From: Pelagibacteraceae bacterium AG-426-M19
GTDB taxonomy: Bacteria; Pseudomonadota; Alphaproteobacteria; Pelagibacterales; Pelagibacteraceae
Length of the DNA: 64,000 nucleotides
Assembly: GCA_003210025.1 (NCBI GenBank)
Contig: QCNW01000006.1
Location: 23,077-87,076, forward strand
Reading direction: 5' to 3'
The notes under the pieces are model-generated. The model was not told the origin of the DNA, did no database searches, and saw only the letters and a program-made list of their open reading frames with translations. Position numbers and translations under genes: made by a program. This document shows positions 47,873 through 58,675 of this stretch, piece by piece. Each line of letters opens with the position of its first letter. Position 1 is the first letter of the stretch.

Positions 47873-48043
47873 ATGAAATTTTTAAAGAAGTTTTATAAAC
47901 CCTTTTTATTAACCTATATTTTTTTGAGTATAGCTATCAGTTTTTATCCATCATTTGATTTTTACTCACTAAAAGGTCAAATTCTTATAATTGCAGTATC
48001 TTTTTTTAATGGGATGATGGGAGTTTACGTAAAAAAATTATAA
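47873..48043 (+). CDS. 56-aa two-TM small membrane protein (below ORF-track cutoff)
   Basis: Manual translation MKFLKKFYKPFLLTYIFLSIAISFYPSFDFYSLKGQILIIAVSFFNGMMGVYVKKL; fills the gap exactly, and its stop overlaps the convergent stop in TTATAA. Confidence 0.6.
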   Translation: MKFLKKFYKPFLLTYIFLSIAISFYPSFDFYSLKGQILIIAVSFFNGMMGVYVKKL

Positions 48044-49141
48044 GACGTAGGGCTCGGGTCTTGCAGAGCTATTTAATACTCTTTCGACTGCGAAAACACT
48101 AATATCTATAGTTTGATAACTGCCTGTAGTTATTAATTCAGTTAGAGCTCTACCAATTCCTGGTGCTTGCATTAAACCTCTGCCGGTAAATCCTGAGGCC
48201 ATGTAAACATTTTCATATTTTGGATGTTTTCCAACTACAGCATTATTATCTAATTTGTTACAATCATAATATCCAGCCCATCCACCTGTTAACTTTAGTT
48301 CTTCAAATGCTGGTATTCTTTTTGCAAGAGCAGGCCAAACTAATTCTTCAAAATCATTCCATGCAGGTTCCAGATCCTCTGCATCAAAAACCGAAATTGG
48401 AGAACCTGCCAAATATTCTTTTCCTTCTGGTCGCCAATATACTCCTGTTGTTAGATCTCCGGATAATGGCATCTCTGGAATATGTTTAGGGCATTTAACT
48501 CTAAAGACTGTATGTTTTTGAGGTACTACAGGAATATCTTCAAGTAGTTCCTTAGTCCAACACCCAGCAGCGGAAATAATTGTCTTTGCATTAATTTCGG
48601 AAAGGCTCTTTACTTCTCCCTTAATAAATTTTGCCCCAAGATCAATTGCTTTATGCTTTAAAGCACTATGAAATAAAAATGGATCTATCCATCCCTCACT
48701 TTTGTTATCAGTAAATGTTGCGGTTTCAATTCCTTCATCATTAATGTAAGGAAAATAGTTTTTTAATTCAGAACCTTTAATATTTTTTGTACCCGCTTCA
48801 CATTCTTTATGATTTTCTAAAGCTCTGTATTGCTCTTCTGCATGATCTGGACCAAACATTAGAAGGTATCCATTGGGTACCATACTAGCTGTTGGATTTG
48901 GATTTTTTTCAGTTTTCAATAATTCTGGTATTTGAAATATAAATTCCCTTGCAAATTTCCCTAAAAGAATATTTTCTTTTTGAAAAAACTGCCGTCTAAA
49001 TCCACCAAGTGATAATGGGAATGATGCGGTTTTATAAGTTGGATCCCTTTCAATAACTTTTACTTTTCTGCCTTCTTTGGACATAAAGTATGCAGTTGCA
49101 GCTCCAATTATACCACCACCTACTATTACAACATCATCCAT
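48038..49141 (-). CDS. FAD-dependent oxidoreductase (DAO/SoxB/FOXRED1-like)
   Basis: VGGGIIG, IERDPTY, SLGGFRRQF, EGWIDP, WAGYYD, GFTGRGLMQAPGIGR. Confidence 0.88.
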   Translation of the reverse strand: MDDVVIVGGGIIGAATAYFMSKEGRKVKVIERDPTYKTASFPLSLGGFRRQFFQKENILLGKFAREFIFQIPELLKTEKNPNPTASMVPNGYLLMFGPDHAEEQYRALENHKECEAGTKNIKGSELKNYFPYINDEGIETATFTDNKSEGWIDPFLFHSALKHKAIDLGAKFIKGEVKSLSEINAKTIISAAGCWTKELLEDIPVVPQKHTVFRVKCPKHIPEMPLSGDLTTGVYWRPEGKEYLAGSPISVFDAEDLEPAWNDFEELVWPALAKRIPAFEELKLTGGWAGYYDCNKLDNNAVVGKHPKYENVYMASGFTGRGLMQAPGIGRALTELITTGSYQTIDISVFAVERVLNSSARPEPYVL

Positions 49142-49142
49142 A

Positions 49143-49610
49143 TTAGTTTATCAAAAAAATGTTTATATTTAAAAGCAATGCAAAACAACACCATAACAAA
49201 TATGGAATCATTAAGTACATGCTTAATAGACTTATATTCTTATATTTAAATACCAATAAAACAATAAATATAATTAACACAACAAGATTTAAAATTGCTA
49301 AAGAAATATTATGGAAACCAAAGAAAACAACACTCCAAGTTGTATTAAAAAAAAGATGAATGAAATATAAAAATACAATATTTAAATTTTTTGTGTTTTT
49401 ATGCCACGCATTCCATATGGCTATTGTCATAAATAAATAAAGTAATGTCCATACTGGCCCAAATATCCAATCTGGTGGATTGTATTGAGGTTTAGATAAA
49501 TTTGAATACCAAGGTTCCTTAAAATTTATAGTAACCAAACCTCCAATAAATGATGCTGAAAACGTAGTAATTGCAAAGAGAATAAAAGATAAAATTTTAT
49601 TTTTTATCAT
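49143..49610 (-). CDS. tspO: TspO/MBR tryptophan-rich sensory protein
   Basis: WYSNLSKP..NPPDWIFGPVWTLLY, WS.VFFG, LMIPYLLW. Confidence 0.93.
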   Translation of the reverse strand: MIKNKILSFILFAITTFSASFIGGLVTINFKEPWYSNLSKPQYNPPDWIFGPVWTLLYLFMTIAIWNAWHKNTKNLNIVFLYFIHLFFNTTWSVVFFGFHNISLAILNLVVLIIFIVLLVFKYKNISLLSMYLMIPYLLWCCFALLLNINIFLIN

Positions 49611-49634: not shown

Positions 49635-50393
49635 ATGAATAAAAAAGTAATTTGGATCACCGGCGGGAGTACGGGAATTGGCAAAGCACTTGCATTAAAA
49701 TTTGCTAATAATGGATGGACAGTTGCTATTTCTGCAAGAAGAGAAAATTTATTGAAAGAAATTGAAGATAAGCATCAAAATATTAAATCTTTTCCTCTTG
49801 ATGTAAATGATAAGGAAAAGTGTAAGTCTGTTTTTGAAAATATAAAAAAGGAACTTGGGGATATTGAAATTTGTTTTTTTTCTACAGGTACCTGGGATCC
49901 AAAAAAGGAAAGAGAAATTGATGTAGAACAAATTGAAAATGTATTTAAGATTAACTTTTTTGGAACATTAAATTGTATAAAGGCAGTTGAAACTCATTTT
50001 CGTGAACGAGAAAAAGGTATCATTACCATTGTATCTTCAATTGCAGGGTACAAAGGCTTACCTAATTCAAGTGGTTATGGACCATCCAAAGCAGCTTTAA
50101 GCAATCTTGCTGAAAGTCTACATTTTGATTTTGGAAGATATGGCGTGAGAGTTTGTTTAGTTTCTCCAGGTTTTATCAAAACACCAATGACTGATAAGAA
50201 TGATTTTAAGATGCCTTTTCTTAAAACTCCAGAATTCTCGGCGGACAAAATTTATGATGGGCTTATTAATGGTTCTAATTTTGAAATACATTACCCAAAA
50301 GAATTAACTTTGATCCTTAAATTTTTAAAAATAATTCCTGATCGACTATATTTTTATTTAATACGAAAATTAACTAAACTACAAAAAAAATAA
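49635..50393 (+). CDS. Short-chain dehydrogenase/reductase
   Basis: WITGGSTGIG, SSIAGYKGLP, YGPSKAA, SPGFIKTPMT. Confidence 0.9.
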   Translation: MNKKVIWITGGSTGIGKALALKFANNGWTVAISARRENLLKEIEDKHQNIKSFPLDVNDKEKCKSVFENIKKELGDIEICFFSTGTWDPKKEREIDVEQIENVFKINFFGTLNCIKAVETHFREREKGIITIVSSIAGYKGLPNSSGYGPSKAALSNLAESLHFDFGRYGVRVCLVSPGFIKTPMTDKNDFKMPFLKTPEFSADKIYDGLINGSNFEIHYPKELTLILKFLKIIPDRLYFYLIRKLTKLQKK

Positions 50394-50395
50394 AA

Positions 50396-50944
50396 TTAAT
50401 CTTTAACAAACATTACAGTCAACTCAGCGACTTTAATTCCAAATTTTGTCATTTTCGCTCTGTTGATAGCTACTCTTTCGTCTTGCATAAATATCCAATC
50501 ATCAAAAGTAATTTTGATATTTTTTCCTTTCACTGGAACTAACAAAACATACTCAAATTTAAATGCTGGGCCATATGAATACCCCCTAGCCTTACCAACT
50601 ACATCGCCTGCAGTTCCCTCATAATTATGTTCATCAATTTTATCTATTACCCATTGCCTATTTTGTATTTCACCATCATTCCAAATAAATTTTTCGTCTA
50701 ATATAAGTTGTTTGCCATCCCACTTGCCGTCCAGGTCCGCTGAAAATTGTCTTGTAACTTTACCTGATCTGTTTTGTAATATGCCCCAAGCTTTGACGTT
50801 TCCGCTTAAATATTCTTCAATTATTAATCTTGGTTTTTGATCTTTAAAATCTTCTGGTTTCATAGATTGATTATTTATACAGCTTGTAATTAATCCTGTA
50901 AAAATTATCAATAAAAATACTTTAAAAAATTTTTTGTTAATCAT
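50396..50944 (-). CDS. DUF3833-family lipoprotein
   Basis: Lipobox-like ITSC; YLSGNVKAWG, LDEKF, GTAGDVVG, FDDW. Confidence 0.85.
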   Translation of the reverse strand: MINKKFFKVFLLIIFTGLITSCINNQSMKPEDFKDQKPRLIIEEYLSGNVKAWGILQNRSGKVTRQFSADLDGKWDGKQLILDEKFIWNDGEIQNRQWVIDKIDEHNYEGTAGDVVGKARGYSYGPAFKFEYVLLVPVKGKNIKITFDDWIFMQDERVAINRAKMTKFGIKVAELTVMFVKD

Positions 50945-50945
50945 A

Positions 50946-52127
50946 TTAAATTTTATTTTGCATGGAAAATTGAATTAAATCTATATTCTTCGATTTAAAC
51001 CCTGCTTCACAATATGACAAATAAAAATGCCACATACGTTTAAATTTATTATCAAATCCATGTTTTGAAATCTCTTCCCATTTTTTTAGGAATTCATCTT
51101 TCCATATTTTTAAGGTACTAGAATAGTGAGATCCATATGACTCATATTTTTTAATTTCTAAACCGTTGCTACTAGATAAATCATATAATTTTTTTTTTGA
51201 TGGCAAAAAACCTCCAGGAAATATGTATTTTTGTATAAAGTCTTCTTTAGTTTTGTATCTGTCAAATAAACTATCATCGATTGTTATAGCTTGTATCGCA
51301 GCCCTTCCGTTCTCAGATAAATTTTTTTTAATACTTTTAAAATAATTGACTAAATAATTTTGCCCAACCGCTTCTATCATTTCTATAGATGCGATAGAGT
51401 CGTATTTATCTTTTACATCTCTATAATCTTTCAAAAATATATTCACTTTCTCATTCAATCCATTTTCAAATATTCTTTTTTTTGAAAATTCAAATTGCTC
51501 TTTAGAGATTGTTATACAATCTAATTTTACATCATAATTTTTACCCACATATTCTGCAAAACCACCCCAGCCACAGCCAATTTCTAAAATTTTATTTCCT
51601 ACGTTTGGCTTTATTAATTCTATAAGCTTTTTATATTTATTTAATTGAGCAGAAAATAAATCATCTTTTTGTTCTTCAAAAATTGCACTTGAATAAGTAA
51701 GTGAAGGATCTAACCATAATGAAAAGAAATCATTTCCTAAATCATAATGTTTCGAAATATTTTTCTTACTTCTACTTTTATTATTTTTTATGAAAATACT
51801 CTTTAGTTTATTAATCATTGATAAATCCAAAATACCTGAAAATTTATAAACAATTTTTATATTTTTAGCTGTTATTTCTATTAGATTAGTTAAATTATCT
51901 GTTTCAAATTCATTTCGCATGTAGGCTTCTGCAAGTCCTACACTTCCTGATTTTATTATTTGTAGAGTTAAACCTGGTTTGTTGATTTTAATCTTTGCTC
52001 TTAACAATTCACTCTCATTACCAAACTTATATATTTTGTTGTCATGATTTTGAATTTCAAGAAATCCGTGCTTTATTAGTTTGAGAGAATTAAATACAAT
52101 TTTATCTGACAAAAAATTAAAGTTCAT
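50946..52127 (-). CDS. cfa: Cyclopropane-fatty-acyl-phospholipid synthase family methyltransferase
   Basis: HYDLGNDFF, LTYSSA, LEIGCGWGG, SIEMIEAVG, YIFPGGFLP, W.FYLSYCEAGF. Confidence 0.92.
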   Translation of the reverse strand: MNFNFLSDKIVFNSLKLIKHGFLEIQNHDNKIYKFGNESELLRAKIKINKPGLTLQIIKSGSVGLAEAYMRNEFETDNLTNLIEITAKNIKIVYKFSGILDLSMINKLKSIFIKNNKSRSKKNISKHYDLGNDFFSLWLDPSLTYSSAIFEEQKDDLFSAQLNKYKKLIELIKPNVGNKILEIGCGWGGFAEYVGKNYDVKLDCITISKEQFEFSKKRIFENGLNEKVNIFLKDYRDVKDKYDSIASIEMIEAVGQNYLVNYFKSIKKNLSENGRAAIQAITIDDSLFDRYKTKEDFIQKYIFPGGFLPSKKKLYDLSSSNGLEIKKYESYGSHYSSTLKIWKDEFLKKWEEISKHGFDNKFKRMWHFYLSYCEAGFKSKNIDLIQFSMQNKI

Positions 52128-52891
52128 TCTTTTTCAAAAGTAATATTATTTTTTATTTTTATATTTTTTCTTACTAACTTAACTCCCTTTAACCATAATT
52201 TTAATGCTTCAAAATGGATTGCGGCAATAACTTTAAAGGTCATTAAAGGGTGAGAAATATAAGATATAAGGATATTTTTATTGTTAATTTCTTTTGCAAC
52301 CCCATCTTGTGAAGCATATAGCAATTTTCCTTCCTTATCACTTTGATCAATTATTACGGATAACATTTTTTCAGGTTTAAGGATTCTAAAAATGTATTTA
52401 CTTTTCATTTCAATAAATGGTGAAACGAAAAACTTCTTCTCACAGCTATTTGTAATTATTTTTTCGTCTTTGACTTTAAATATATAAGTATGTTGCTCAC
52501 CAAATGTATTTTTAACTTCATACAATATAGCTATAATTTTTGAATGATTATCATAAACGAAAAAAATACTTAATGGATTAAATACGTAACCGAATATTCT
52601 AGGATAACAAAGTAATTTTACCTTTATATTTTCAAATTGAATGTTGTTTAATTTTAAATTTTCTATTACCCAGGCTTTTAAATCACTACCATCTCTAGGT
52701 CCGTGATCTTTGTCATAAAAACTTAAAATATTAAAACTATTGTTAGAAAAAATTTTAATTTTTTTTTGTATCAAATTAATTTCATCAAGATCTAAAAATA
52801 GTGAAAAAACGTTGTATTTAAAAAAGTGATATTTTGGCTTAAATCTTTTATGAATTACTTTACCTTCGTAAATATTGGAATTTTTAATCAT
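52124..52891 (-). CDS. DUF1365-family protein
   Basis: HKRFKP, DHG, PRIFGYVFNPLS, YEVKNTFGE.H, FFVSPF, IHFEALKLWLKG. Confidence 0.9.
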   Translation of the reverse strand: MIKNSNIYEGKVIHKRFKPKYHFFKYNVFSLFLDLDEINLIQKKIKIFSNNSFNILSFYDKDHGPRDGSDLKAWVIENLKLNNIQFENIKVKLLCYPRIFGYVFNPLSIFFVYDNHSKIIAILYEVKNTFGEQHTYIFKVKDEKIITNSCEKKFFVSPFIEMKSKYIFRILKPEKMLSVIIDQSDKEGKLLYASQDGVAKEINNKNILISYISHPLMTFKVIAAIHFEALKLWLKGVKLVRKNIKIKNNITFEKE

Positions 52892-54122
52892 TTAGGTTTT
52901 CAATCATATTAATGGATGATTTTATTCCATCTTCATGAAAACCGTAACCAAAATAACTTCCACAAAACAATACATTTCTTTTATTTTGTATTTCTTTTAA
53001 TAATTTTTGATTATTCAAAGCATCTTGATCAAAATAAGGGTGTGTAAAAGTAACTTTTTGTAAGACTTTTTTTTGATCTATTTCAAAAAAAGGATTTAAG
53101 GTTAAGAAAATATTTTTTTCTGTTTTCAGATTTTGTAATAAGTTAAGCCAATAGGTAAGCGATGTTTTACTAATATCTAACTTATCAATTGAGGAATTCC
53201 ATGAAGACCAAACTTTTTTATTATTTGGCATACATACATCATCAGTATGTATTACTGCTAGATTGGATTTATATTTAAAATTTGAAAGTATTTTTTTTTC
53301 ATCATCAGTCGGCTCGCTCAAAATTTTCAATGCATCATCTGCATGAGTAGCGATAACAACTTTATCATAGTCAAAAAATTCGTTGCTAGCACCATAATAT
53401 ACTTGAACACCAATTTTATTTCTTTTTATCGAATTAATTTTATAATTTTTAAAATATTCTCCACTTATTTGAGTTAATACTTTCTCTACATAAGTTCTAC
53501 TTCTGTTGGTGACTGTGTACCATTGTGGTCTATTTTTTAATTTAAAAAGTCCATGATTTTGAAAAAATTTTAAGAAAAATTTAATTGGCATTTGATTTGC
53601 TTCTACTGGTGGCATAGACCAGATGGCAGAAACCATTGGGATTAGATGAAAATTAATAAAATTTTTTGACCATTTATTTTTTTCAAGAAATTCACCAAGA
53701 GTAATTTCTTCATTTAAACTTTTAATTTGATCACACTTTTTGTAGAAATTTATAATATCAAAAAACATTTTTAAAAATTTTAAATTAAAAAGATTAGCTT
53801 TATTTGCAAAAATTCCGTTTAGGCCTCTGCCACAATATTCATAATTTGTATCTTTTACAGAAACAGAAAACGACATATCACTTTTTTCAATTTCAATTTT
53901 TAATTCATTAAAAAAATTTATGAGATTTGGATAAGTTTCATGATTAAAAACAATAAAACCAATATCTACAGGAACTTTTTTACCATTAATAAAAGTGTCT
54001 ATGGTATATGAATGACCACCAAAATGATCTTCACTTTCAAATAAATCAACATGATGTTTTTTAGAAAGCTTTTGTGCTGCTGATAAACCAGAGATTCCTG
54101 ATCCAATTACTGCAATTCGCAT
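52884..54122 (-). CDS. FAD-dependent oxidoreductase (flavin amine oxidase-like) of the cfa/DUF1365 cluster
   Basis: IAVIGSGISGL, FGGHS, VDIGFIVFN..TYPN, HAD.AL, GSYFGYGFHEDG. Confidence 0.9.
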   Translation of the reverse strand: MRIAVIGSGISGLSAAQKLSKKHHVDLFESEDHFGGHSYTIDTFINGKKVPVDIGFIVFNHETYPNLINFFNELKIEIEKSDMSFSVSVKDTNYEYCGRGLNGIFANKANLFNLKFLKMFFDIINFYKKCDQIKSLNEEITLGEFLEKNKWSKNFINFHLIPMVSAIWSMPPVEANQMPIKFFLKFFQNHGLFKLKNRPQWYTVTNRSRTYVEKVLTQISGEYFKNYKINSIKRNKIGVQVYYGASNEFFDYDKVVIATHADDALKILSEPTDDEKKILSNFKYKSNLAVIHTDDVCMPNNKKVWSSWNSSIDKLDISKTSLTYWLNLLQNLKTEKNIFLTLNPFFEIDQKKVLQKVTFTHPYFDQDALNNQKLLKEIQNKRNVLFCGSYFGYGFHEDGIKSSINMIENLND

Positions 54123-54127
54123 TAAGG

Positions 54128-56998
54128 TTATGCTGCGTCTTCTTTAAACTCATCCATGCTTGGACATGTGCAGAATATATTTTTATCTCCATAAACATTG
54201 TCTACCCGAGCAACTGGAGGCCAAAATTTGTTTTTTTTTAAAAAACTTGCAGGATACGCTGCTTCTTGTCTTGAATATTTATGTTGCCATACATCTGATG
54301 ATAATTCAGTATCAGTGTGAGGAGCGTTTTTAATTGGATTATCAATTTTATCAAATTCACCTGATTTAATTTTTTCAATTTCTTGTTTAATCTTAATTAA
54401 AGTGTCACAAAATCTGTCTATTTCTGATAACCCTTCACTTTCAGTTGGCTCTATCATCATAGTGCCAGCTACAGGCCATGACATAGTTGGTGCGTGAAAT
54501 CCAAAATCTATCATTCTTTTCGCAATATCTTCTTCAGTTACCCCTGTTTCAGATTTAATATTTCTAATATCAATTATGCACTCATGTGCAACATTGCCAT
54601 TTGCACCTTTGTATAAAATTGGAAAGTGATCTTTTAGTCTATGAGCAATATAATTTGCGTTTAAAATTGCAACTTGAGTAGCAAGCTTTAATCCTTCTGA
54701 TCCCATCATTTTAATATACATCCAAGAGATTGATAAAATACTTGAGCTCCCCCAAGGAGCTGCTGATACTGCTCCAATTCCACTTGTTGGTCCGCAATCT
54801 TTTATTACTGGATGATTAGGCAGATAAACTTGTAAATGTTTTTTACAAGCTATAGGTCCCATTCCAGGTCCACCACCACCGTGTGGAATACAAAATGTTT
54901 TATGCAGATTAATATGACAAACATCTGGACCAAAATTTCCAGGCTTTGCAACTCCAACAAGGGCATTTAAATTTGCTCCATCCATATATACCTGTCCACC
55001 ATGTTTATGAACTAACTCACAAATATCAGTTATTTTTTCCTCAAACACTCCATGGGTAGATGGGTAAGTTACCATTAAAGCTGCGAGATTTTCTGAATGT
55101 TGCTCTACTTTTTTCCTTAAATCATCGAAATCTACATTTCCTTCTTTATCACAATTAACAACAACCACTTTCATTCCAACCATTTGTGCGCTTGCTGGAT
55201 TTGTGCCATGCGCCGAACTTGGGATTAAACATATATTACGATGAGCTTCATCTCTATCTAAGTGGTACTTTCTTATAACCATTAGACCTGCATATTCTCC
55301 TTGAGCGCCTGCATTAGGTTGTAGAGAGACACCAGAAAAACCTGTTATAGATCTCAACCAATTTTTTAAATCAGTAAACAAATCTCTAAAACCTTCCATT
55401 TGTTCAACTGGAACAAAAGGATGAGGTTCTGCAAATTCTTTCCAAGAAATCGGGATCATTTCAGCAGCTGCATTTAACTTCATTGTGCACGAACCAAGTG
55501 CTATCATAGTTCTATTCAATGCTATATCCTTATCCTCTAACTTTTTAAGATATCTAAGCATTTCAGTCTCTGAATGATATAAGTTAAAAATTGGATGCTC
55601 CAAATATTTTGAAGTTCTAAGTAAATTTTTTGGTAAATTAGGTAATTTAATTGAAGGATCCTCTTTTTTTATTGACTCTGCTGCATTAAAAATTTTTAAT
55701 AATTGATTTACTCTATATACGTTTTTTCTCTCATCAAAAGAGACAGCAAGCGTTTCAGAATTTACTTTTCGTATATTAACTTTCTGATTTAGAGCGTTTT
55801 TATAAATTTGATCAGTCTTTTCTTTAGTAATAATTGTAACAGTATCAAAAAAATAATCAGAATAAATTTCATAACCTGACTGTTTTATTTTATCAGCAAA
55901 ACTTTTTGCTAATTGAGAGACTCTTTCAGAAATATTTTTAATTCCATCTGGACCATGATAAATAGCATATGCTGCTGAAACAATTGCTAATAAAGCTTGA
56001 GCAGTACAAATATTGCTTGTCGCCTTATCTCTTCTGATGTGTTGCTCTCTAGTTTGTAATGATAATCTGTATGCCTTGTTACCGTGTCTATCAACTGAGA
56101 CACCAACAATTCTCCCAGGCATCGATCTCTTATACTCATCTTTAGTTGCAAAAAATGCTGCGTGTGGACCTCCATACCCCATTGGAATTCCAAATCGCTG
56201 AGAGCTTCCAACTGCTATATCAGCACCAAGCTCTCTTGGTGTTTTTAATTTTGCTAACGCTAATAAATCACAAGCTAATACAGCCTTACCGCTCCTTTTA
56301 TGAATTTTGCTAATTGCTTCACTTGGATCTTTAATATCTCCTAAAGTTCCAGGATATTGTAAAATTCCACAAACTAGATCTTCTTTTAATTGGTCTAATA
56401 CTTCATCTTCTTTTCCAACTAAAACTTTTAAACCCATCGGTTCAGCTCTAGTTTGAATTACATTTATTGTTTGAGGATGGCAATCCTCAGATACAAAAAC
56501 TAAATTGCTGTCTTTTTTATTTAATCTATGACTAAGACCCATAGCTTCTGCTGCAGCTGTGCCTTCATCCAATAAAGAAGCATTAGCGATATCCATTCCA
56601 GTAAAATCAACAATCATTTGTTGAAAGTTTAATAACATCTCAAGTCTTCCTTGAGCTACTTCAGGCTGATAAGGTGTATATGATGTGTACCAACCAGGAT
56701 TTTCTAAAATATTTCTTAAAATGACATATGGCGTATACGTCCCATAATAACCCATTCCAATAAAATTTGAGTAAACATGATTTTTTTTTGAAATTGCTCT
56801 TAATTTTCTTAGCGCTTCATATTCTGAATTAGACTCTCCGATATTTAGCTCACCTTTAAACATTATTTTTTCTGGAACAGTGTTATTCATTAAATCATCT
56901 ATTGATTGATAATTTAATTCTTTTAACATTTTTAATTGGTCTTCTTTAGAAGGTCCGATGTGTCTTTTTATAAAATCTTTTTCTGAATTTGGTAACAT
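54128..56998 (-). CDS. gcvP: Glycine dehydrogenase (P protein)
   Basis: FIKRHIGP, YTPYQPEVAQGRLE, ATSNICTAQALLA, LGSCTMKLN, NLHKTF, PHGGGGPG. Confidence 0.98.
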   Translation of the reverse strand: MLPNSEKDFIKRHIGPSKEDQLKMLKELNYQSIDDLMNNTVPEKIMFKGELNIGESNSEYEALRKLRAISKKNHVYSNFIGMGYYGTYTPYVILRNILENPGWYTSYTPYQPEVAQGRLEMLLNFQQMIVDFTGMDIANASLLDEGTAAAEAMGLSHRLNKKDSNLVFVSEDCHPQTINVIQTRAEPMGLKVLVGKEDEVLDQLKEDLVCGILQYPGTLGDIKDPSEAISKIHKRSGKAVLACDLLALAKLKTPRELGADIAVGSSQRFGIPMGYGGPHAAFFATKDEYKRSMPGRIVGVSVDRHGNKAYRLSLQTREQHIRRDKATSNICTAQALLAIVSAAYAIYHGPDGIKNISERVSQLAKSFADKIKQSGYEIYSDYFFDTVTIITKEKTDQIYKNALNQKVNIRKVNSETLAVSFDERKNVYRVNQLLKIFNAAESIKKEDPSIKLPNLPKNLLRTSKYLEHPIFNLYHSETEMLRYLKKLEDKDIALNRTMIALGSCTMKLNAAAEMIPISWKEFAEPHPFVPVEQMEGFRDLFTDLKNWLRSITGFSGVSLQPNAGAQGEYAGLMVIRKYHLDRDEAHRNICLIPSSAHGTNPASAQMVGMKVVVVNCDKEGNVDFDDLRKKVEQHSENLAALMVTYPSTHGVFEEKITDICELVHKHGGQVYMDGANLNALVGVAKPGNFGPDVCHINLHKTFCIPHGGGGPGMGPIACKKHLQVYLPNHPVIKDCGPTSGIGAVSAAPWGSSSILSISWMYIKMMGSEGLKLATQVAILNANYIAHRLKDHFPILYKGANGNVAHECIIDIRNIKSETGVTEEDIAKRMIDFGFHAPTMSWPVAGTMMIEPTESEGLSEIDRFCDTLIKIKQEIEKIKSGEFDKIDNPIKNAPHTDTELSSDVWQHKYSRQEAAYPASFLKKNKFWPPVARVDNVYGDKNIFCTCPSMDEFKEDAA

Positions 56999-57378
56999 TA
57001 TGCTGATGTCTCCTTTGCAAATTTTTCATATTCCTCTTTGTTCATAAGAGTGTCCATTTCGGTTTTGTCTTTTATTTTTAGTTTAAAAAACCATGCAGAC
57101 TCCTCTGGGTCTTCATTTATTTTTGATGGATCATCAACTATCATTTGATTTGTATCTATAACTTCTCCACTAACAGGAGTGTAAACATCACTTGCAGCTT
57201 TTGTTGACTCAACAACTCCAGCAGTTCCATCTTTATCAACATTTGAACCTTTCTCTGGGAGTTCAGCAAATACTATATCCCCAAGCATTTCTGTTGCATG
57301 CTTAGTTATTCCAATTGTAGCTTCTTCTCCATCTAATTTAATCCACTCATGTTCTTTCGAATATTTAACTTCAGACAT
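56998..57378 (-). CDS. gcvH: Glycine cleavage H protein
   Basis: [22 protein letters not shown] (lipoyl Lys). Confidence 0.97.
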
Positions 57379-58477
57379 TAATTTCCCCTTTTACATAATT
57401 TTTTTTATAAAACGGTAAGTTACAAATATTTGCAGGAATCTTTTTTCCTCTAACTTCAAGAAATATTTTTGTATTTACAGTTGAATAGCTATTATCGACA
57501 TATCCCATTGCTATTGGATGTTCAACGCTTGGTCCAAATGTACCACTTGTTACTTTCCCAATTTCTTGGTTTTTATCATTGTAAATTTTTGTATTTTCTC
57601 TGGCAATTACTTTGCTATCTGGTTTTATACCAACTCTTAATTTTTTTACTCCACTTTGAAATTGGTTTTTTAAAACTTCTGATCCAACAAATTCAGTCTC
57701 AATTCTACTCTTAGGTATTGCCCATTTTAGATTAGCTTCGATAGGACTGGTATCGTTGTCTAAATCATTTCCATATAAACACAGTCCAGCTTCCATTCTT
57801 AATGTATCTCTTGCTCCTAAACCAATCAATTTAGATCCATTTTCTATCAAACTTTCTACAAAAATTTCAGCATCACTATGTTTTATGGAAATTTCAAATC
57901 CATCCTCACCAGTATATCCTGATCTAGTTATGTATACTTTTCCATTGTTATATACATAATTATTTCCGCTCATAAATTTTAGATTGTCACAACCAGGTAT
58001 TACTTTATTTAAAACATTTTTTGCTTCAGGGCCCTGTAATGCAATTAATGACAATGACTCATCTAGATTTAATTTATATTGATTATCAAGTTTGGATTTT
58101 ATTACTTCATAATCATTATACTTACATGCGGCATTCAAAATAATTAAAAATCCATCATATGTTTTAGTAATTATCAGATCGTCCTGAATACCTCCTTTGT
58201 TATTCATTAAAAATGAATACTTGCTTTGATTAGTTTTTAATTTTTTCAGATCTGCAGGAAAAATCTTCTCAAGATTATTTGTAAGATCATCTCCACCCGA
58301 TATAAATAATTGACCCATATGAGAAACATCAAAAATACCAGAGTGTGACCGTGTATATTTATGTTCTTGTATAATTCCATCTTTATATTGAATGGGCATT
58401 TGATATCCAGCAAACTCAACAAGCTTTGCACCATACTTGATGTGGAGATTATTTAATGATGTTTTTTTTATACTCAT
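57371..58477 (-). CDS. gcvT: Glycine cleavage T protein
   Basis: [45 protein letters not shown]. Confidence 0.97.
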
Positions 58478-58495: not shown

Positions 58496-58635
58496 CTCTG
58501 TCTTTTTGCCTGAGAGATTTGCTCCTTCGGCGAGAATAATTCTCTTTCCAGAGTTAATATGTACGGTCCGTTTGCCTGAGAGTTTCCGGGGTGGTTGCTC
58601 CTTCGGCAGGTTTTATTTCAAACCATTCTCCCGTA
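58496..58635 (-). ncRNA. Tandem glycine riboswitch upstream of gcvT
   Basis: Aptamer 1 (58635-58562) ACGGGAGA...GCCGAAGGAGCAA...CUCUCAGGCAAACGGACCGUA; aptamer 2 (58553-58496) CUCUGGAAAG...GCCGAAGGAGCAAAUCUCUCAGGCAAAAAGACAGAG. Confidence 0.97.
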
Positions 58636-58675
58636 TATCTACTATAGATGATTTGTAAAATTTAATCCACTAATT

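What the first reader, a model, noticed from the sequence alone, without database searches (positions are those of the whole stretch)
49635..54122. Furan/methyl-branched fatty-acid (Ufa-like) cluster
Sequence: flavin oxidoreductase, DUF1365, Cfa-like methylase and DUF3833 in one operon, with an SDR and tspO adjacent. Background: in Rhodobacter sphaeroides, UfaM (Cfa-like), UfaD (flavoprotein) and UfaO (DUF1365), encoded near DUF3833 and SDR genes, make furan fatty acids that quench singlet oxygen. Inference: this cell may make furan or methylated lipids as a membrane antioxidant rather than plain cyclopropane fatty acids.
Basis: partly seen in the sequence, partly recalled or inferred. Interest (0 to 1): 0.65.

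Follow-up and report, generated by a model that had tools for sequence, protein, structure and literature searches.

The report
SAR11 furan-fatty-acid-type lipid operon
This ocean bacterium (SAR11/Pelagibacter) carries the gene set that two other alphaproteobacteria use to turn membrane fatty acids into methylated and furan fatty acids; here it has no stress regulator nearby and sits directly behind the glycine-cleavage genes, but which lipid it actually makes has not been measured.

Summary
On the minus strand, right after gcvT-gcvH-gcvP, lie four overlapping or abutting genes: an amine-oxidase-type flavoprotein (UfaD-like), DUF1365 (UfaO-like), a Cfa-family SAM methylase and a DUF3833 lipoprotein. 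A convergent SDR and tspO follow. The genome is Candidatus Pelagibacter.

The methylase is not a canonical Cfa. It groups with methylases that sit next to, or are fused to, DUF1365. The nearest relatives have the same layout plus an ECF sigma/ChrR pair and a photolyase. This 64-kb window has none of those. Instead, ufaD starts 5 nt after gcvP, and the same adjacency occurs in a relative whose methylase is only 58% identical. Metatranscriptome contigs bridge that junction.

Best reading (about 0.6): a working UfaM/UfaD/UfaO-type pathway, a new member of a known kind with rewired regulation.

Caveats:
- The only published SAR11 fatty-acid profile (HTCC7211) lists 11.9% 17:0 cyclopropane, 0.8% 11-methyl-18:1 and no furan acid.
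- The clade's active-site signature (C139S, H266Q) also occurs in plant enzymes that make cyclopropane rings.

The parts
52884..54122 (-). ufaD-like FAD-dependent (amine-oxidase-type) fatty-acyl desaturase gene, 412 aa. Its ATG lies 5 nt after the gcvP stop codon.
   Evidence: Pfam NAD_binding_8 plus Amino_oxidase. 37-38% identity (E 1e-89 to 1e-91) to the ufaD gene of the Rhodobacteraceae ufaD-ufaO-MFS-DUF3833-SDR operons L001 and L003. 60 residues are invariant across 7 homologues, including the N-terminal GxGxxG. The closest solved structure is the amine oxidase LkcE, matched over its full length at 2.5e-27.
52124..52891 (-). ufaO-like DUF1365 gene, 255 aa. It overlaps ufaD by 8 nt.
   Evidence: PF07103 at 247.8 bits. 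29-31% identity to the Rhodobacteraceae operon ufaO and 39% to L034. All 34 family-invariant residues are kept, including H14, R16, D62, H63, E125, H134 and H226. No sequence relative has a solved structure. The AF2 model has pLDDT 82.6 and is mostly beta.
50946..52127 (-). ufaM-like Cfa-family SAM-dependent fatty-acyl methylase gene, 393 aa. It overlaps ufaO by 4 nt.
   Evidence: CMAS at 281 bits plus DUF7884. It scores below every NCBIfam Cfa cut-off: 267.5 against 400 for PRK11705. It lies in the clade of DUF1365-adjacent and DUF1365-fused methylases, apart from canonical Cfa. The signature is C139S, H266Q, G236E and D173E in E. coli numbering.
50396..50944 (-). DUF3833 gene, 182 aa, with a lipoprotein-like N-terminus (…LITSC). 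Last gene of the operon.
   Evidence: PF12915 at 203 bits. 32% identity to the DUF3833 genes of L001 and L003. The same position is conserved in Azospirillum B510 and in L032, L034 and L036. The R. sphaeroides homologue RSP1088 is dispensable for furan fatty acid synthesis.
49635..50393 (+). Short-chain dehydrogenase/reductase gene, 252 aa, convergent with the operon (2-nt gap).
   Evidence: adh_short. 33-39% identity to the operon SDR of L001 and L003. The same convergent position is seen in Azospirillum B510 and in L032, L034 and L036. RSP1087 is dispensable for furan fatty acid synthesis.
49143..49610 (-). tspO (tryptophan-rich sensory protein), 155 aa. A neighbour and possible functional associate.
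   Evidence: TspO_MBR at 134.6 bits. Conserved next to the SDR in L009-L016. A TspO gene also sits between the ufa genes and sigma/ChrR on the Rhizobium tropici plasmid.
54128..58477 (-). gcvT-gcvH-gcvP, directly upstream and probably on the same transcript.
   Evidence: NCBIfam equivalogs above cut-off. The junction reads TAA-CCTTA-ATG, with no terminator-like site between gcvP and ufaD. Metatranscriptome contigs span the junction in 3 runs. The same adjacency occurs in L035, whose methylase is 58% identical.
58554..58643 (-). Glycine riboswitch aptamer upstream of gcvT. Candidate upstream control of the whole transcript.
   Evidence: Rfam RF00504 at 68.2 bits against a gathering score of 32.

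Best explanation

Inferred steps, by homology with the enzymes characterised in R. sphaeroides and R. palustris:
1. The Cfa-family methylase (UfaM-like) adds a SAM methyl group to a cis n-7 double bond. In SAR11 the main substrate would be 16:1 cis-9, with a little 18:1 cis-11. The product is a methyl-branched trans-monoene.
2. The flavoprotein (UfaD-like) desaturates this, using O2, to a conjugated methyl-diene.
3. The DUF1365 protein (UfaO-like) inserts an oxygen atom from O2 to close the furan ring. The expected products are a C17 furan acid from 16:1 and/or the C19 acid 9M5-FuFA from 18:1.

The lipids would act as membrane scavengers of singlet oxygen and radicals in a sunlit-ocean cell. 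DUF3833, the SDR and TspO are conserved companions whose role is unknown.

Unlike its relatives, the window copy has no sigmaE/ChrR pair and no photolyase gene within these 64 kb. It is attached to the 3' end of gcvTHP and is probably transcribed with it from the promoter controlled by the glycine riboswitch.

Shown here: gene identities, clade membership, synteny, purifying selection, and presence in metatranscriptome assemblies.
Inferred: every chemical step, the products and the regulation.
For: Identities and packing: Pfam hits of 1e-60 to 1e-84 and overlapping genes.

Published experiments:
- ufaD (RSP1091) and ufaO (RSP1090) are necessary for 9M5-FuFA.
- RPA2569-2571 are necessary in R. 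palustris and sufficient in R. sphaeroides.
- The Halomonas ufaM lies next to ufaD and ufaO and gives 11-methyl-octadec-12-enoate in E. coli.

Orthology to the Rhodobacteraceae operon (ufaD-ufaO-MFS-DUF3833-SDR, divergent rpoE-chrR): UfaD 37-38% identity, UfaO 29-31%, DUF3833 32%, SDR 33-39%.

The methylase:
- The best 150 of 12840 representative hits score at least 264 bits. E. coli Cfa scores about 200 bits.
- 33 of the 150 are DUF1365::CMAS fusions.
- In the trees the window protein falls with all six named DUF1365-adjacent methylases and all the fusions. Canonical Cfa proteins split off at 96/84, and the DUF1365-linked clade has 89/93 support (IQ-TREE) or 95-97 (FastTree).

All four nearest relatives whose context was examined are in ufaD-ufaO-methylase operons:
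- two with SDR-ChrR-ECF sigma, one of them also with a photolyase;
- one led by a photolyase gene;
- one directly behind gcvP.

A SAR11 isolate contains 11-methyl-18:1, the UfaM-type product, and no free 18:1 cis-11.

dN/dS is 0-0.16.

Metatranscriptome contigs cover the whole cluster and bridge the gcvP/ufaD junction in 3 runs.
Against: - No furan fatty acid is listed for HTCC7211. The main modified acid is reported as 17:0 cyclo9-10 (11.9%), with 11-methyl-18:1 at only 0.8%. About 14% of that profile is not itemised. I could not verify that HTCC7211 carries this cluster.
- The clade signature C139S/H266Q also occurs in cotton cyclopropane synthases. Those enzymes make cyclopropane rings and resemble UfaD::UfaM fusions. 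Clade membership therefore does not fix the product.
- No direct comparison was possible with the validated proteins RSP2144, RSP1090, RSP1091 or RPA2569-2571. The primer search hit other Rhodobacteraceae, not R. sphaeroides.
- The RNA evidence consists of unstranded assembled contigs at a flat depth of about 13-30, so DNA carry-over is not excluded.
- An internal promoter inside gcvP is not excluded.
Confidence: 0.6

Rival explanations
1. The methylase works as a true cyclopropane synthase and makes the 17:0 cyclo9-10 reported in SAR11. UfaD and UfaO then act on another substrate, modify the cyclopropane acid (for example towards a cyclopropene), or contribute only trace products. No meaningful amount of furan lipid is made.
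For: - HTCC7211 has 11.9% 17:0 cyclo9-10 and no furan acid is listed.
- E239, I268 and Y317 of the bicarbonate site are kept. The C139S/H266Q pair also occurs in cotton CPS1/2, which do make cyclopropane acids.
- No other Cfa-family gene lies in the 64-kb window.
- HTCC1062 has one gene cited as cfa, SAR11_1144.
Against: - Every relative of this methylase whose context I examined is next to ufaD and ufaO, or fused to DUF1365.
- In R. palustris and Halomonas the methylase in this position is UfaM and gives the methyl-branched monoene.
- It fails the NCBIfam Cfa equivalog cut-offs and separates from canonical Cfa in the trees.
- Cyclopropane and methyl-monoene methyl esters are isomers, so a library assignment could be wrong (my own knowledge).
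Confidence: 0.25
2. The flavoprotein-plus-methylase pair makes saturated mid-chain methyl-branched fatty acids, like the 10-methyl (tuberculostearic-type) BfaA/BfaB or TmsA/TmsB route.
For: A Cfa-family methylase lies near a flavoprotein gene. HTCC7211 lists a trace (0.5%) of a 10-methyl-branched C16 acid.
Against: - As I recall it, the reductase of that route belongs to a different flavoprotein family (FAD_binding_4 type). The window flavoprotein is NAD_binding_8/Amino_oxidase and gave no FAD_binding_4 hit.
- That route does not use DUF1365, which here is translationally coupled between the two genes and is often fused to the methylase.
Confidence: 0.03
3. The UfaD/UfaO pair serves mainly as a signalling device, as proposed for activation of sigmaE through ChrR proteolysis in R. 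sphaeroides. Or the cluster is a decaying remnant of a lost stress regulon.
For: RSP1090 and RSP1091 are needed for singlet-oxygen-dependent ChrR turnover. The regulator pair is absent from the window.
Against: - There is no ChrR in the window to act on.
- All six genes are under strong purifying selection.
- The genes are intact in many independent assemblies and extremely abundant.
- They are present in metatranscriptome assemblies.
Confidence: 0.04

Closest known systems
Rhodopseudomonas palustris CGA009 ufaD-ufaO-ufaM (RPA2571-RPA2570-RPA2569), Lemke et al. 2020 (PMC7380195)
   Same: Same three gene families in the same order, with the methylase inside the operon. There the trio is necessary in R. 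palustris and sufficient in R. sphaeroides for 11Me-12t-18:1, 11Me-10t,12t-18:2 and 9M5-FuFA.
   Different: The sequences could not be fetched, so identity to them is untested. R. palustris also has FufM (RPA0924) for dimethyl-FuFA; no FufM-like gene is in the window. The SAR11 copy follows gcvP, and the main likely substrate is 16:1 rather than 18:1.
Rhodobacter (Cereibacter) sphaeroides RSP1091-1087 operon plus ufaM (RSP2144), part of the sigmaE-ChrR singlet-oxygen regulon
   Same: UfaD, UfaO, DUF3833 (RSP1088) and an SDR (RSP1087) as companions. The window proteins are 29-39% identical to those of Rhodobacteraceae operons of this type.
   Different: There the third gene is a GPH/MFS symporter (RSP1089) and the methylase is encoded elsewhere, next to phrA. 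Divergent rpoE-chrR controls that operon. The window has the methylase in the operon, no transporter and no sigma/ChrR.
Azospirillum sp. B510 plasmid pAB510d cluster (AZL_RS28305-28330), and the uncultured low-GC marine relatives L032 and L034
   Same: Identical layout: FAD oxidoreductase, DUF1365, Cfa-family methylase, DUF3833, then a convergent SDR. L034 and L032 are the next-closest relatives examined after L035 (methylase 45-47% identical by BLASTP).
   Different: All three carry an ECF sigma/ChrR-type pair beside the cluster, and L034 also carries a photolyase gene. SAR11 has gcvTHP upstream and tspO after the SDR instead. None of these clusters has been characterised experimentally.
Plant cyclopropane synthases / AtUFAMD1 (AT3G23510), which are FAD-oxidase::CPS fusions; cotton GhCPS1/2
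   Same: A UfaD-like domain together with a Cfa-family domain. The same Q at E. coli H266 and the same S at C139 as in the window methylase.
   Different: They are eukaryotic fusion proteins, with DUF1365 encoded elsewhere. The cotton enzymes make cyclopropane acids. This is why the product of the SAR11 enzyme cannot be read from its sequence.
[quoted passage not shown]
   Same: Same fold family and the same two-domain length. 34% identity. SAM motif and E239/I268/Y317 are conserved.
   Different: Different clade, below the NCBIfam cut-off, C139S and H266Q at the bicarbonate site, and no ufaD/ufaO neighbours in E. coli.

Membership tests
UfaM/UfaD/UfaO methylated furan fatty acid pathway (Lemke 2014, 2020) | UfaD: an FAD/NAD-binding, phytoene-desaturase/amine-oxidase-like protein encoded next to ufaO | tested here: met
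   NAD_binding_8 plus Amino_oxidase. 37-38% identity, E about 1e-90, to the ufaD gene of Rhodobacteraceae RSP1091-1087-type operons. Overlaps ufaO by 8 nt. Not compared with RSP1091 itself.
UfaM/UfaD/UfaO methylated furan fatty acid pathway (Lemke 2014, 2020) | UfaO: a DUF1365 protein | tested here: met
   PF07103 at 247.8 bits against a cut-off of 25. All 34 residues invariant across SAR11-like and Rhodobacteraceae homologues are kept.
UfaM/UfaD/UfaO methylated furan fatty acid pathway (Lemke 2014, 2020) | UfaM: a Cfa-family SAM methylase orthologous to RSP2144 or RPA2569 | tested here: inconclusive
   It falls in the DUF1365-adjacent/fused methylase clade, separate from canonical Cfa. It occupies the operon position of RPA2569 and of the Halomonas ufaM. 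The validated sequences themselves could not be obtained.
UfaM/UfaD/UfaO methylated furan fatty acid pathway (Lemke 2014, 2020) | Products: a methyl-branched trans-monoene, a methyl-diene and a furan fatty acid in phospholipids, formed with O2 | not testable with these tools
   The published HTCC7211 profile lists 11-methyl-18:1 (0.8%) and 17:0 cyclo (11.9%) and no furan acid. Whether that strain carries the cluster was not verified.
sigmaE-ChrR singlet-oxygen regulon | An adjacent ECF sigma factor and a ChrR anti-sigma (Cupin_7) that control the operon | tested here: not met
   tblastn with the sigma, ChrR and photolyase proteins of L032 and L034 finds nothing in the 64-kb window. The rest of the genome could not be searched.
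[quoted passage not shown] | Scores above the curated equivalog threshold and groups with E. coli-type Cfa | tested here: not met
   NF008686 scores 267.5 against a cut-off of 400; NF053839 scores 267.2 against 600. Separated from the six canonical or stand-alone Cfa proteins at 96/84.
[quoted passage not shown] | Bicarbonate-site residues C139, E239, H266, I268 and Y317 conserved (listed in PMC3132707) | tested here: not met
   The window has S, E, Q, I and Y. In the clade, Q at position 266 occurs in 147 of 149 sequences. Plant cyclopropane synthases share S and Q, so this does not exclude cyclopropanation.
10-methyl fatty acid route (BfaA/BfaB, TmsA/TmsB) | An FAD_binding_4-type methylene reductase paired with the methylase (feature recalled from memory) | tested here: not met
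   The flavoprotein is NAD_binding_8/Amino_oxidase, with no FAD_binding_4 hit.

The most novel reading that the evidence does not exclude
In SAR11 the furan-lipid operon has lost its singlet-oxygen regulator and is instead tied to the gcvTHP transcript controlled by the glycine riboswitch. SAM-consuming lipid methylation would then rise and fall with the cell's glycine-derived one-carbon supply.

Acting mainly on 16:1 cis-9, the pathway would make a C17 methyl-furan acid, perhaps hidden in or mistaken for other peaks in the only published profile. That would make the ocean's most abundant heterotroph a large, unrecognised source of marine furan fatty acids.
Probability: 0.25. Interest if true: 0.7.

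Novelty: new member of a known kind. Interest (0 to 1): 0.45.

Why it matters
Furan fatty acids are potent membrane antioxidants. They accumulate in fish and other marine animals, and their ultimate producers in the sea are poorly known.

[quoted passage not shown] One exact allele of this methylase is indexed in about 1600 blocks of the public sequence collection. A full-text search found no paper that links Pelagibacter to furan fatty acids.

If the pathway works as in R. palustris, SAR11 membranes contain O2-dependent methylated or furan lipids that would matter in three ways:
- for photo-oxidative stress tolerance;
- for the interpretation of lipid biomarkers (17:0 cyclo against methyl-16:1);
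- for the marine supply of these lipids.

The conserved attachment to gcvTHP also gives a simple test of whether a riboswitch-controlled housekeeping operon has taken over the expression of a stress module after the dedicated sigma/anti-sigma pair was lost.

Tried and rejected
I therefore could not count Cfa-family genes or look for sigma/ChrR in the whole genome.
- I first recalled RSP1089 as a Cfa-like gene. That was wrong: it is a GPH/MFS symporter.
- To obtain validated reference proteins I searched genome contigs with a primer from Lemke's supplement. It hit three other Rhodobacteraceae (L001-L003) and not R. sphaeroides.
- The RPA2569 start primer in metagenome contigs gave five chance matches, none carrying any other primer site or any ufa gene.
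- N- and C-terminal tags deduced from the primers (MSELVA…FAKAG for RPA2569) matched none of the 150 representatives.
- The listing of cluster members gave no informative organism names for the nearest relatives or for an HTCC7211 copy.
- The search for homologous proteins was saturated by alleles at least 97% identical.
- A fold search with the UfaO model against the PDB gave no significant match.
- The promoter scan found fewer sites than in shuffled sequence and is uninformative.
- Rejected: a 10-methyl fatty-acid route (wrong flavoprotein family) and a decaying remnant (dN/dS 0-0.16).


Full report
**What is there**

The window has about 30% G+C. Its proteins are nearly identical to proteins that NCBI names Candidatus Pelagibacter / Pelagibacteraceae, so this is a SAR11 genome.

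On the minus strand a glycine riboswitch aptamer (58554-58643; RF00504, 68 bits) precedes gcvT, gcvH and gcvP (58477-54128; NCBIfam equivalogs above cut-off). Five nucleotides after the gcvP stop (TAA-CCTTA-ATG) four tightly packed genes begin:
- an amine-oxidase-type flavoprotein (52884-54122);
- a DUF1365 protein (52124-52891; 8-nt overlap);
- a Cfa-family (CMAS) methylase (50946-52127; 4-nt overlap);
- a DUF3833 protein with a lipoprotein-like N-terminus (50396-50944; 1-nt gap).

An SDR gene converges on the operon (49635-50393, plus strand). tspO and a DAO-type flavoprotein gene follow.

**Is it real and maintained?**

The same eleven-gene neighbourhood is found in eight independent long metagenome contigs. 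One exact allele of the methylase is indexed in 1597 blocks of the collection. Against that strain, dN/dS is 0-0.16 for all six genes from ufaD to tspO.

**What the literature establishes**

- In R. sphaeroides, UfaM (RSP2144) methylates phospholipid-bound cis-vaccenate to 11Me-12t-18:1. UfaD (RSP1091) desaturates this to 11Me-10t,12t-18:2. UfaO (RSP1090, DUF1365) uses O2 to form 9M5-FuFA. RSP1089, RSP1088 and RSP1087 are dispensable.
- I had remembered RSP1089 as Cfa-like, which was wrong. It is a GPH-family symporter. The Rhodobacteraceae operons that I fetched with a primer from Lemke's supplement show ufaD-ufaO-MFS_2-DUF3833-SDR, with divergent rpoE-chrR in L003.
- In R. palustris the methylase is inside the operon (RPA2571-2570-2569), and the trio is necessary in R. 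palustris and sufficient in R. sphaeroides.
- In Halomonas YLGW01 the three genes are also consecutive, and ufaM expressed in E. coli gives 11-methyl-octadec-12-enoate.

The window thus combines the R. palustris/Halomonas core with the DUF3833 and SDR companions known from R. sphaeroides.

**Orthology tests**

The window proteins match the Rhodobacteraceae operon proteins as follows: UfaD 37-38% identity (E about 1e-90), UfaO 29-31% (E about 1e-33), DUF3833 32%, SDR 33-39%. UfaO keeps all 34 residues that are invariant across SAR11-like and Rhodobacteraceae homologues. UfaD keeps 60 invariant residues, including the dinucleotide-binding motif.

For the methylase, a full-library search gave 12840 hits. 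The best 150 representatives score at least 264 bits, while E. coli Cfa scores about 200 bits. Thirty-three of the 150 are DUF1365::CMAS fusion proteins.

I built a 163-sequence FastTree and a 47-sequence IQ-TREE (LG+C20). In both, the window protein lies in the clade that holds:
- all six named methylases that sit next to DUF1365 (Salinivibrio, Pseudoalteromonas, Azospirillum B510, Ralstonia, Rhizobium tropici, Ensifer);
- every fusion protein.

This clade is separate from canonical or stand-alone Cfa proteins (E. coli, Comamonas, Ralstonia GMI1000, Pediococcus, Phenylobacterium, Roseibium). It is also separate from the short Cfa-likes that sit next to DUF1295. The split from the canonical group has 96/84 support. 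The DUF1365-linked clade has 89/93 in IQ-TREE and 95-97 in FastTree. The protein also fails all NCBIfam Cfa cut-offs.

I could not obtain RSP2144 or RPA2569 themselves. Membership in the UfaM family therefore rests on clade, synteny and fusions, not on a direct comparison.

**Relatives and regulation**

| Relative | Methylase identity, G+C | Context |
|---|---|---|
| L035 | 58%, 25% | ufaD 12 nt after gcvP, as in the window |
| L034 | 45-46%, 27% | ufaD-ufaO-methylase-DUF3833, then convergent SDR-ChrR-ECF sigma-photolyase |
| L032 | 43-47%, 29% | ufaD-ufaO-methylase-DUF3833, then convergent SDR-ChrR-ECF sigma |
| L037 / L038 | 41-42% | photolyase-ufaD-ufaO-methylase |

Plasmid-borne copies in alpha-, beta- and gammaproteobacteria are accompanied by sigma/ChrR, phrB, NTF2, DUF2878, chalcone-isomerase-like and lipocalin genes. 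In Rhizobium tropici a TspO gene is also present.

The 64-kb window has no homologue of the sigma factor, ChrR or the photolyase.

There is no terminator-like site between gcvP and ufaD. In four seawater metatranscriptome runs, assembled contigs cover the entire cluster. In three of them a contig bridges the gcvP/ufaD junction (for example 53830-54157). This fits co-transcription with gcvTHP. The contigs are unstranded, however, and their depth is flat (about 13-30), so DNA carry-over cannot be excluded.

**What it makes: the open point**

The only SAR11 fatty-acid profile I found is for HTCC7211:

| Fatty acid | Share |
|---|---|
| 16:1 cis-9 | 45.8% |
| 16:0 | 17.7% |
| 17:0 cyclo9-10 | 11.9% |
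| 11-methyl-18:1 | 0.8% |
| 19:1 cis-12 | 0.7% |
| 18:1 cis-11 | none |
| furan acids | none listed |

About 14% of the profile is not itemised.

11-methyl-18:1 is the UfaM-type product, which supports UfaM-like activity in SAR11. The dominant modified acid, however, is reported as a cyclopropane.

In the alignment, the DUF1365-linked clade (149 sequences) carries diagnostic changes at the bicarbonate site of cyclopropane synthases. In E. coli numbering:
- H266Q in 147 of 149 sequences;
- C139S in 102, with A in 24 and C in 21;
- G236E in 147 of 149;
- D173E in 146 of 149.

The window protein carries the majority residue at all four positions. E239, I268 and Y317 are retained.

I first read this as a signature for a different product. 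But cotton cyclopropane synthases have the same S and Q and do make cyclopropane acids, and the plant enzymes resemble UfaD::UfaM fusions. The product of the SAR11 methylase therefore cannot be deduced from sequence.

A 2007 study cites one HTCC1062 gene as cfa (SAR11_1144), whose Sargasso Sea homologues lie in a different gene order.

**Verdict**

The most likely reading (about 0.6) is a functional UfaM/UfaD/UfaO-type pathway that acts on SAR11's n-7 monoenes, expressed without the usual sigmaE/ChrR control and probably together with gcvTHP. The main rival (about 0.25) is that the methylase is the cell's cyclopropane synthase.

This is a new member of a known kind with a distinctive regulatory context. 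Other notes of this scan reached the same reading for other SAR11 genomes. They are not independent evidence.

A full-text search found no paper that links Pelagibacter to furan fatty acids.

Noticed in passing
P0130, P0140, P0151, P0176, P0183 and 28 other representatives: 22% (33 of 150) of the nearest representatives of the methylase are single proteins of about 610-775 aa with an N-terminal DUF1365 domain and a C-terminal CMAS domain. This UfaO::methylase fusion links the first and last steps of the proposed pathway.
   Followed up: partly
window 52124-52891 (UfaO-like); model m41cd7661f40c: The AF2 model of the DUF1365 protein is confident (pLDDT 82.6, pTM 0.85) and mostly beta. It has no significant match in the PDB: best E 7e-3 and TM about 0.3, with weak resemblance to nitrobindin and fatty-acid-binding-type barrels. 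The invariant His, Asp and Glu residues (H14, D62, H63, E125, H134, H226) could form a metal or catalytic site.
   Followed up: partly
L024 2615-4447 (Rhizobium tropici pRtrCIAT899a); L023 7967-9875 (Ralstonia wenshanensis): A DUF1295 gene is paired with a short (342-366 aa), very divergent Cfa-family gene beside the ufa genes. This is possibly the FufM-type second methylase module (compare RPA0923/RPA0924). No such pair is in the SAR11 window.
   Followed up: no
L037 4605-9176; L038 (start of contig to 3665): In a relative whose methylase is about 41-42% identical, a DNA photolyase gene overlaps the start of ufaD and leads a photolyase-ufaD-ufaO-methylase operon without DUF3833 or an SDR. This directly links the trio with light-damage repair.
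   Followed up: no
window 54741-54761 (-), inside gcvP: A terminator-like hairpin followed by a T-rich tail lies about 620 nt before the gcvP stop. Summed metatranscriptome contig depth falls about 3-5 fold downstream of it, from about 95-175 at 54655-54996 to about 16-67 at 54142-54483 and 0-36 in ufaD. Contig depth is a poor measure, so this is only a hint of partial attenuation before the lipid genes.
   Followed up: no
L029 1137-3733 (Roseibium sp. Sym1 plasmid): An NAD(P)/FAD oxidoreductase gene overlaps a 451-aa Cfa-family gene with no DUF1365 nearby. This methylase groups with the stand-alone Phenylobacterium Cfa, not with the DUF1365-linked clade.
   Followed up: no
window 48038-49610 (-): tspO is followed after a 1-nt gap by a DAO-family FAD oxidoreductase gene (367 aa). 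The pair is conserved in L009-L016.
   Followed up: no
L018 6800-8035 (Azospirillum thermophilum plasmid): The methylase gene between DUF1365 and an MFS transporter gene appears broken. It is split into two reading frames, and only a 135-aa 'class I SAM-dependent methyltransferase' is annotated.
   Followed up: no
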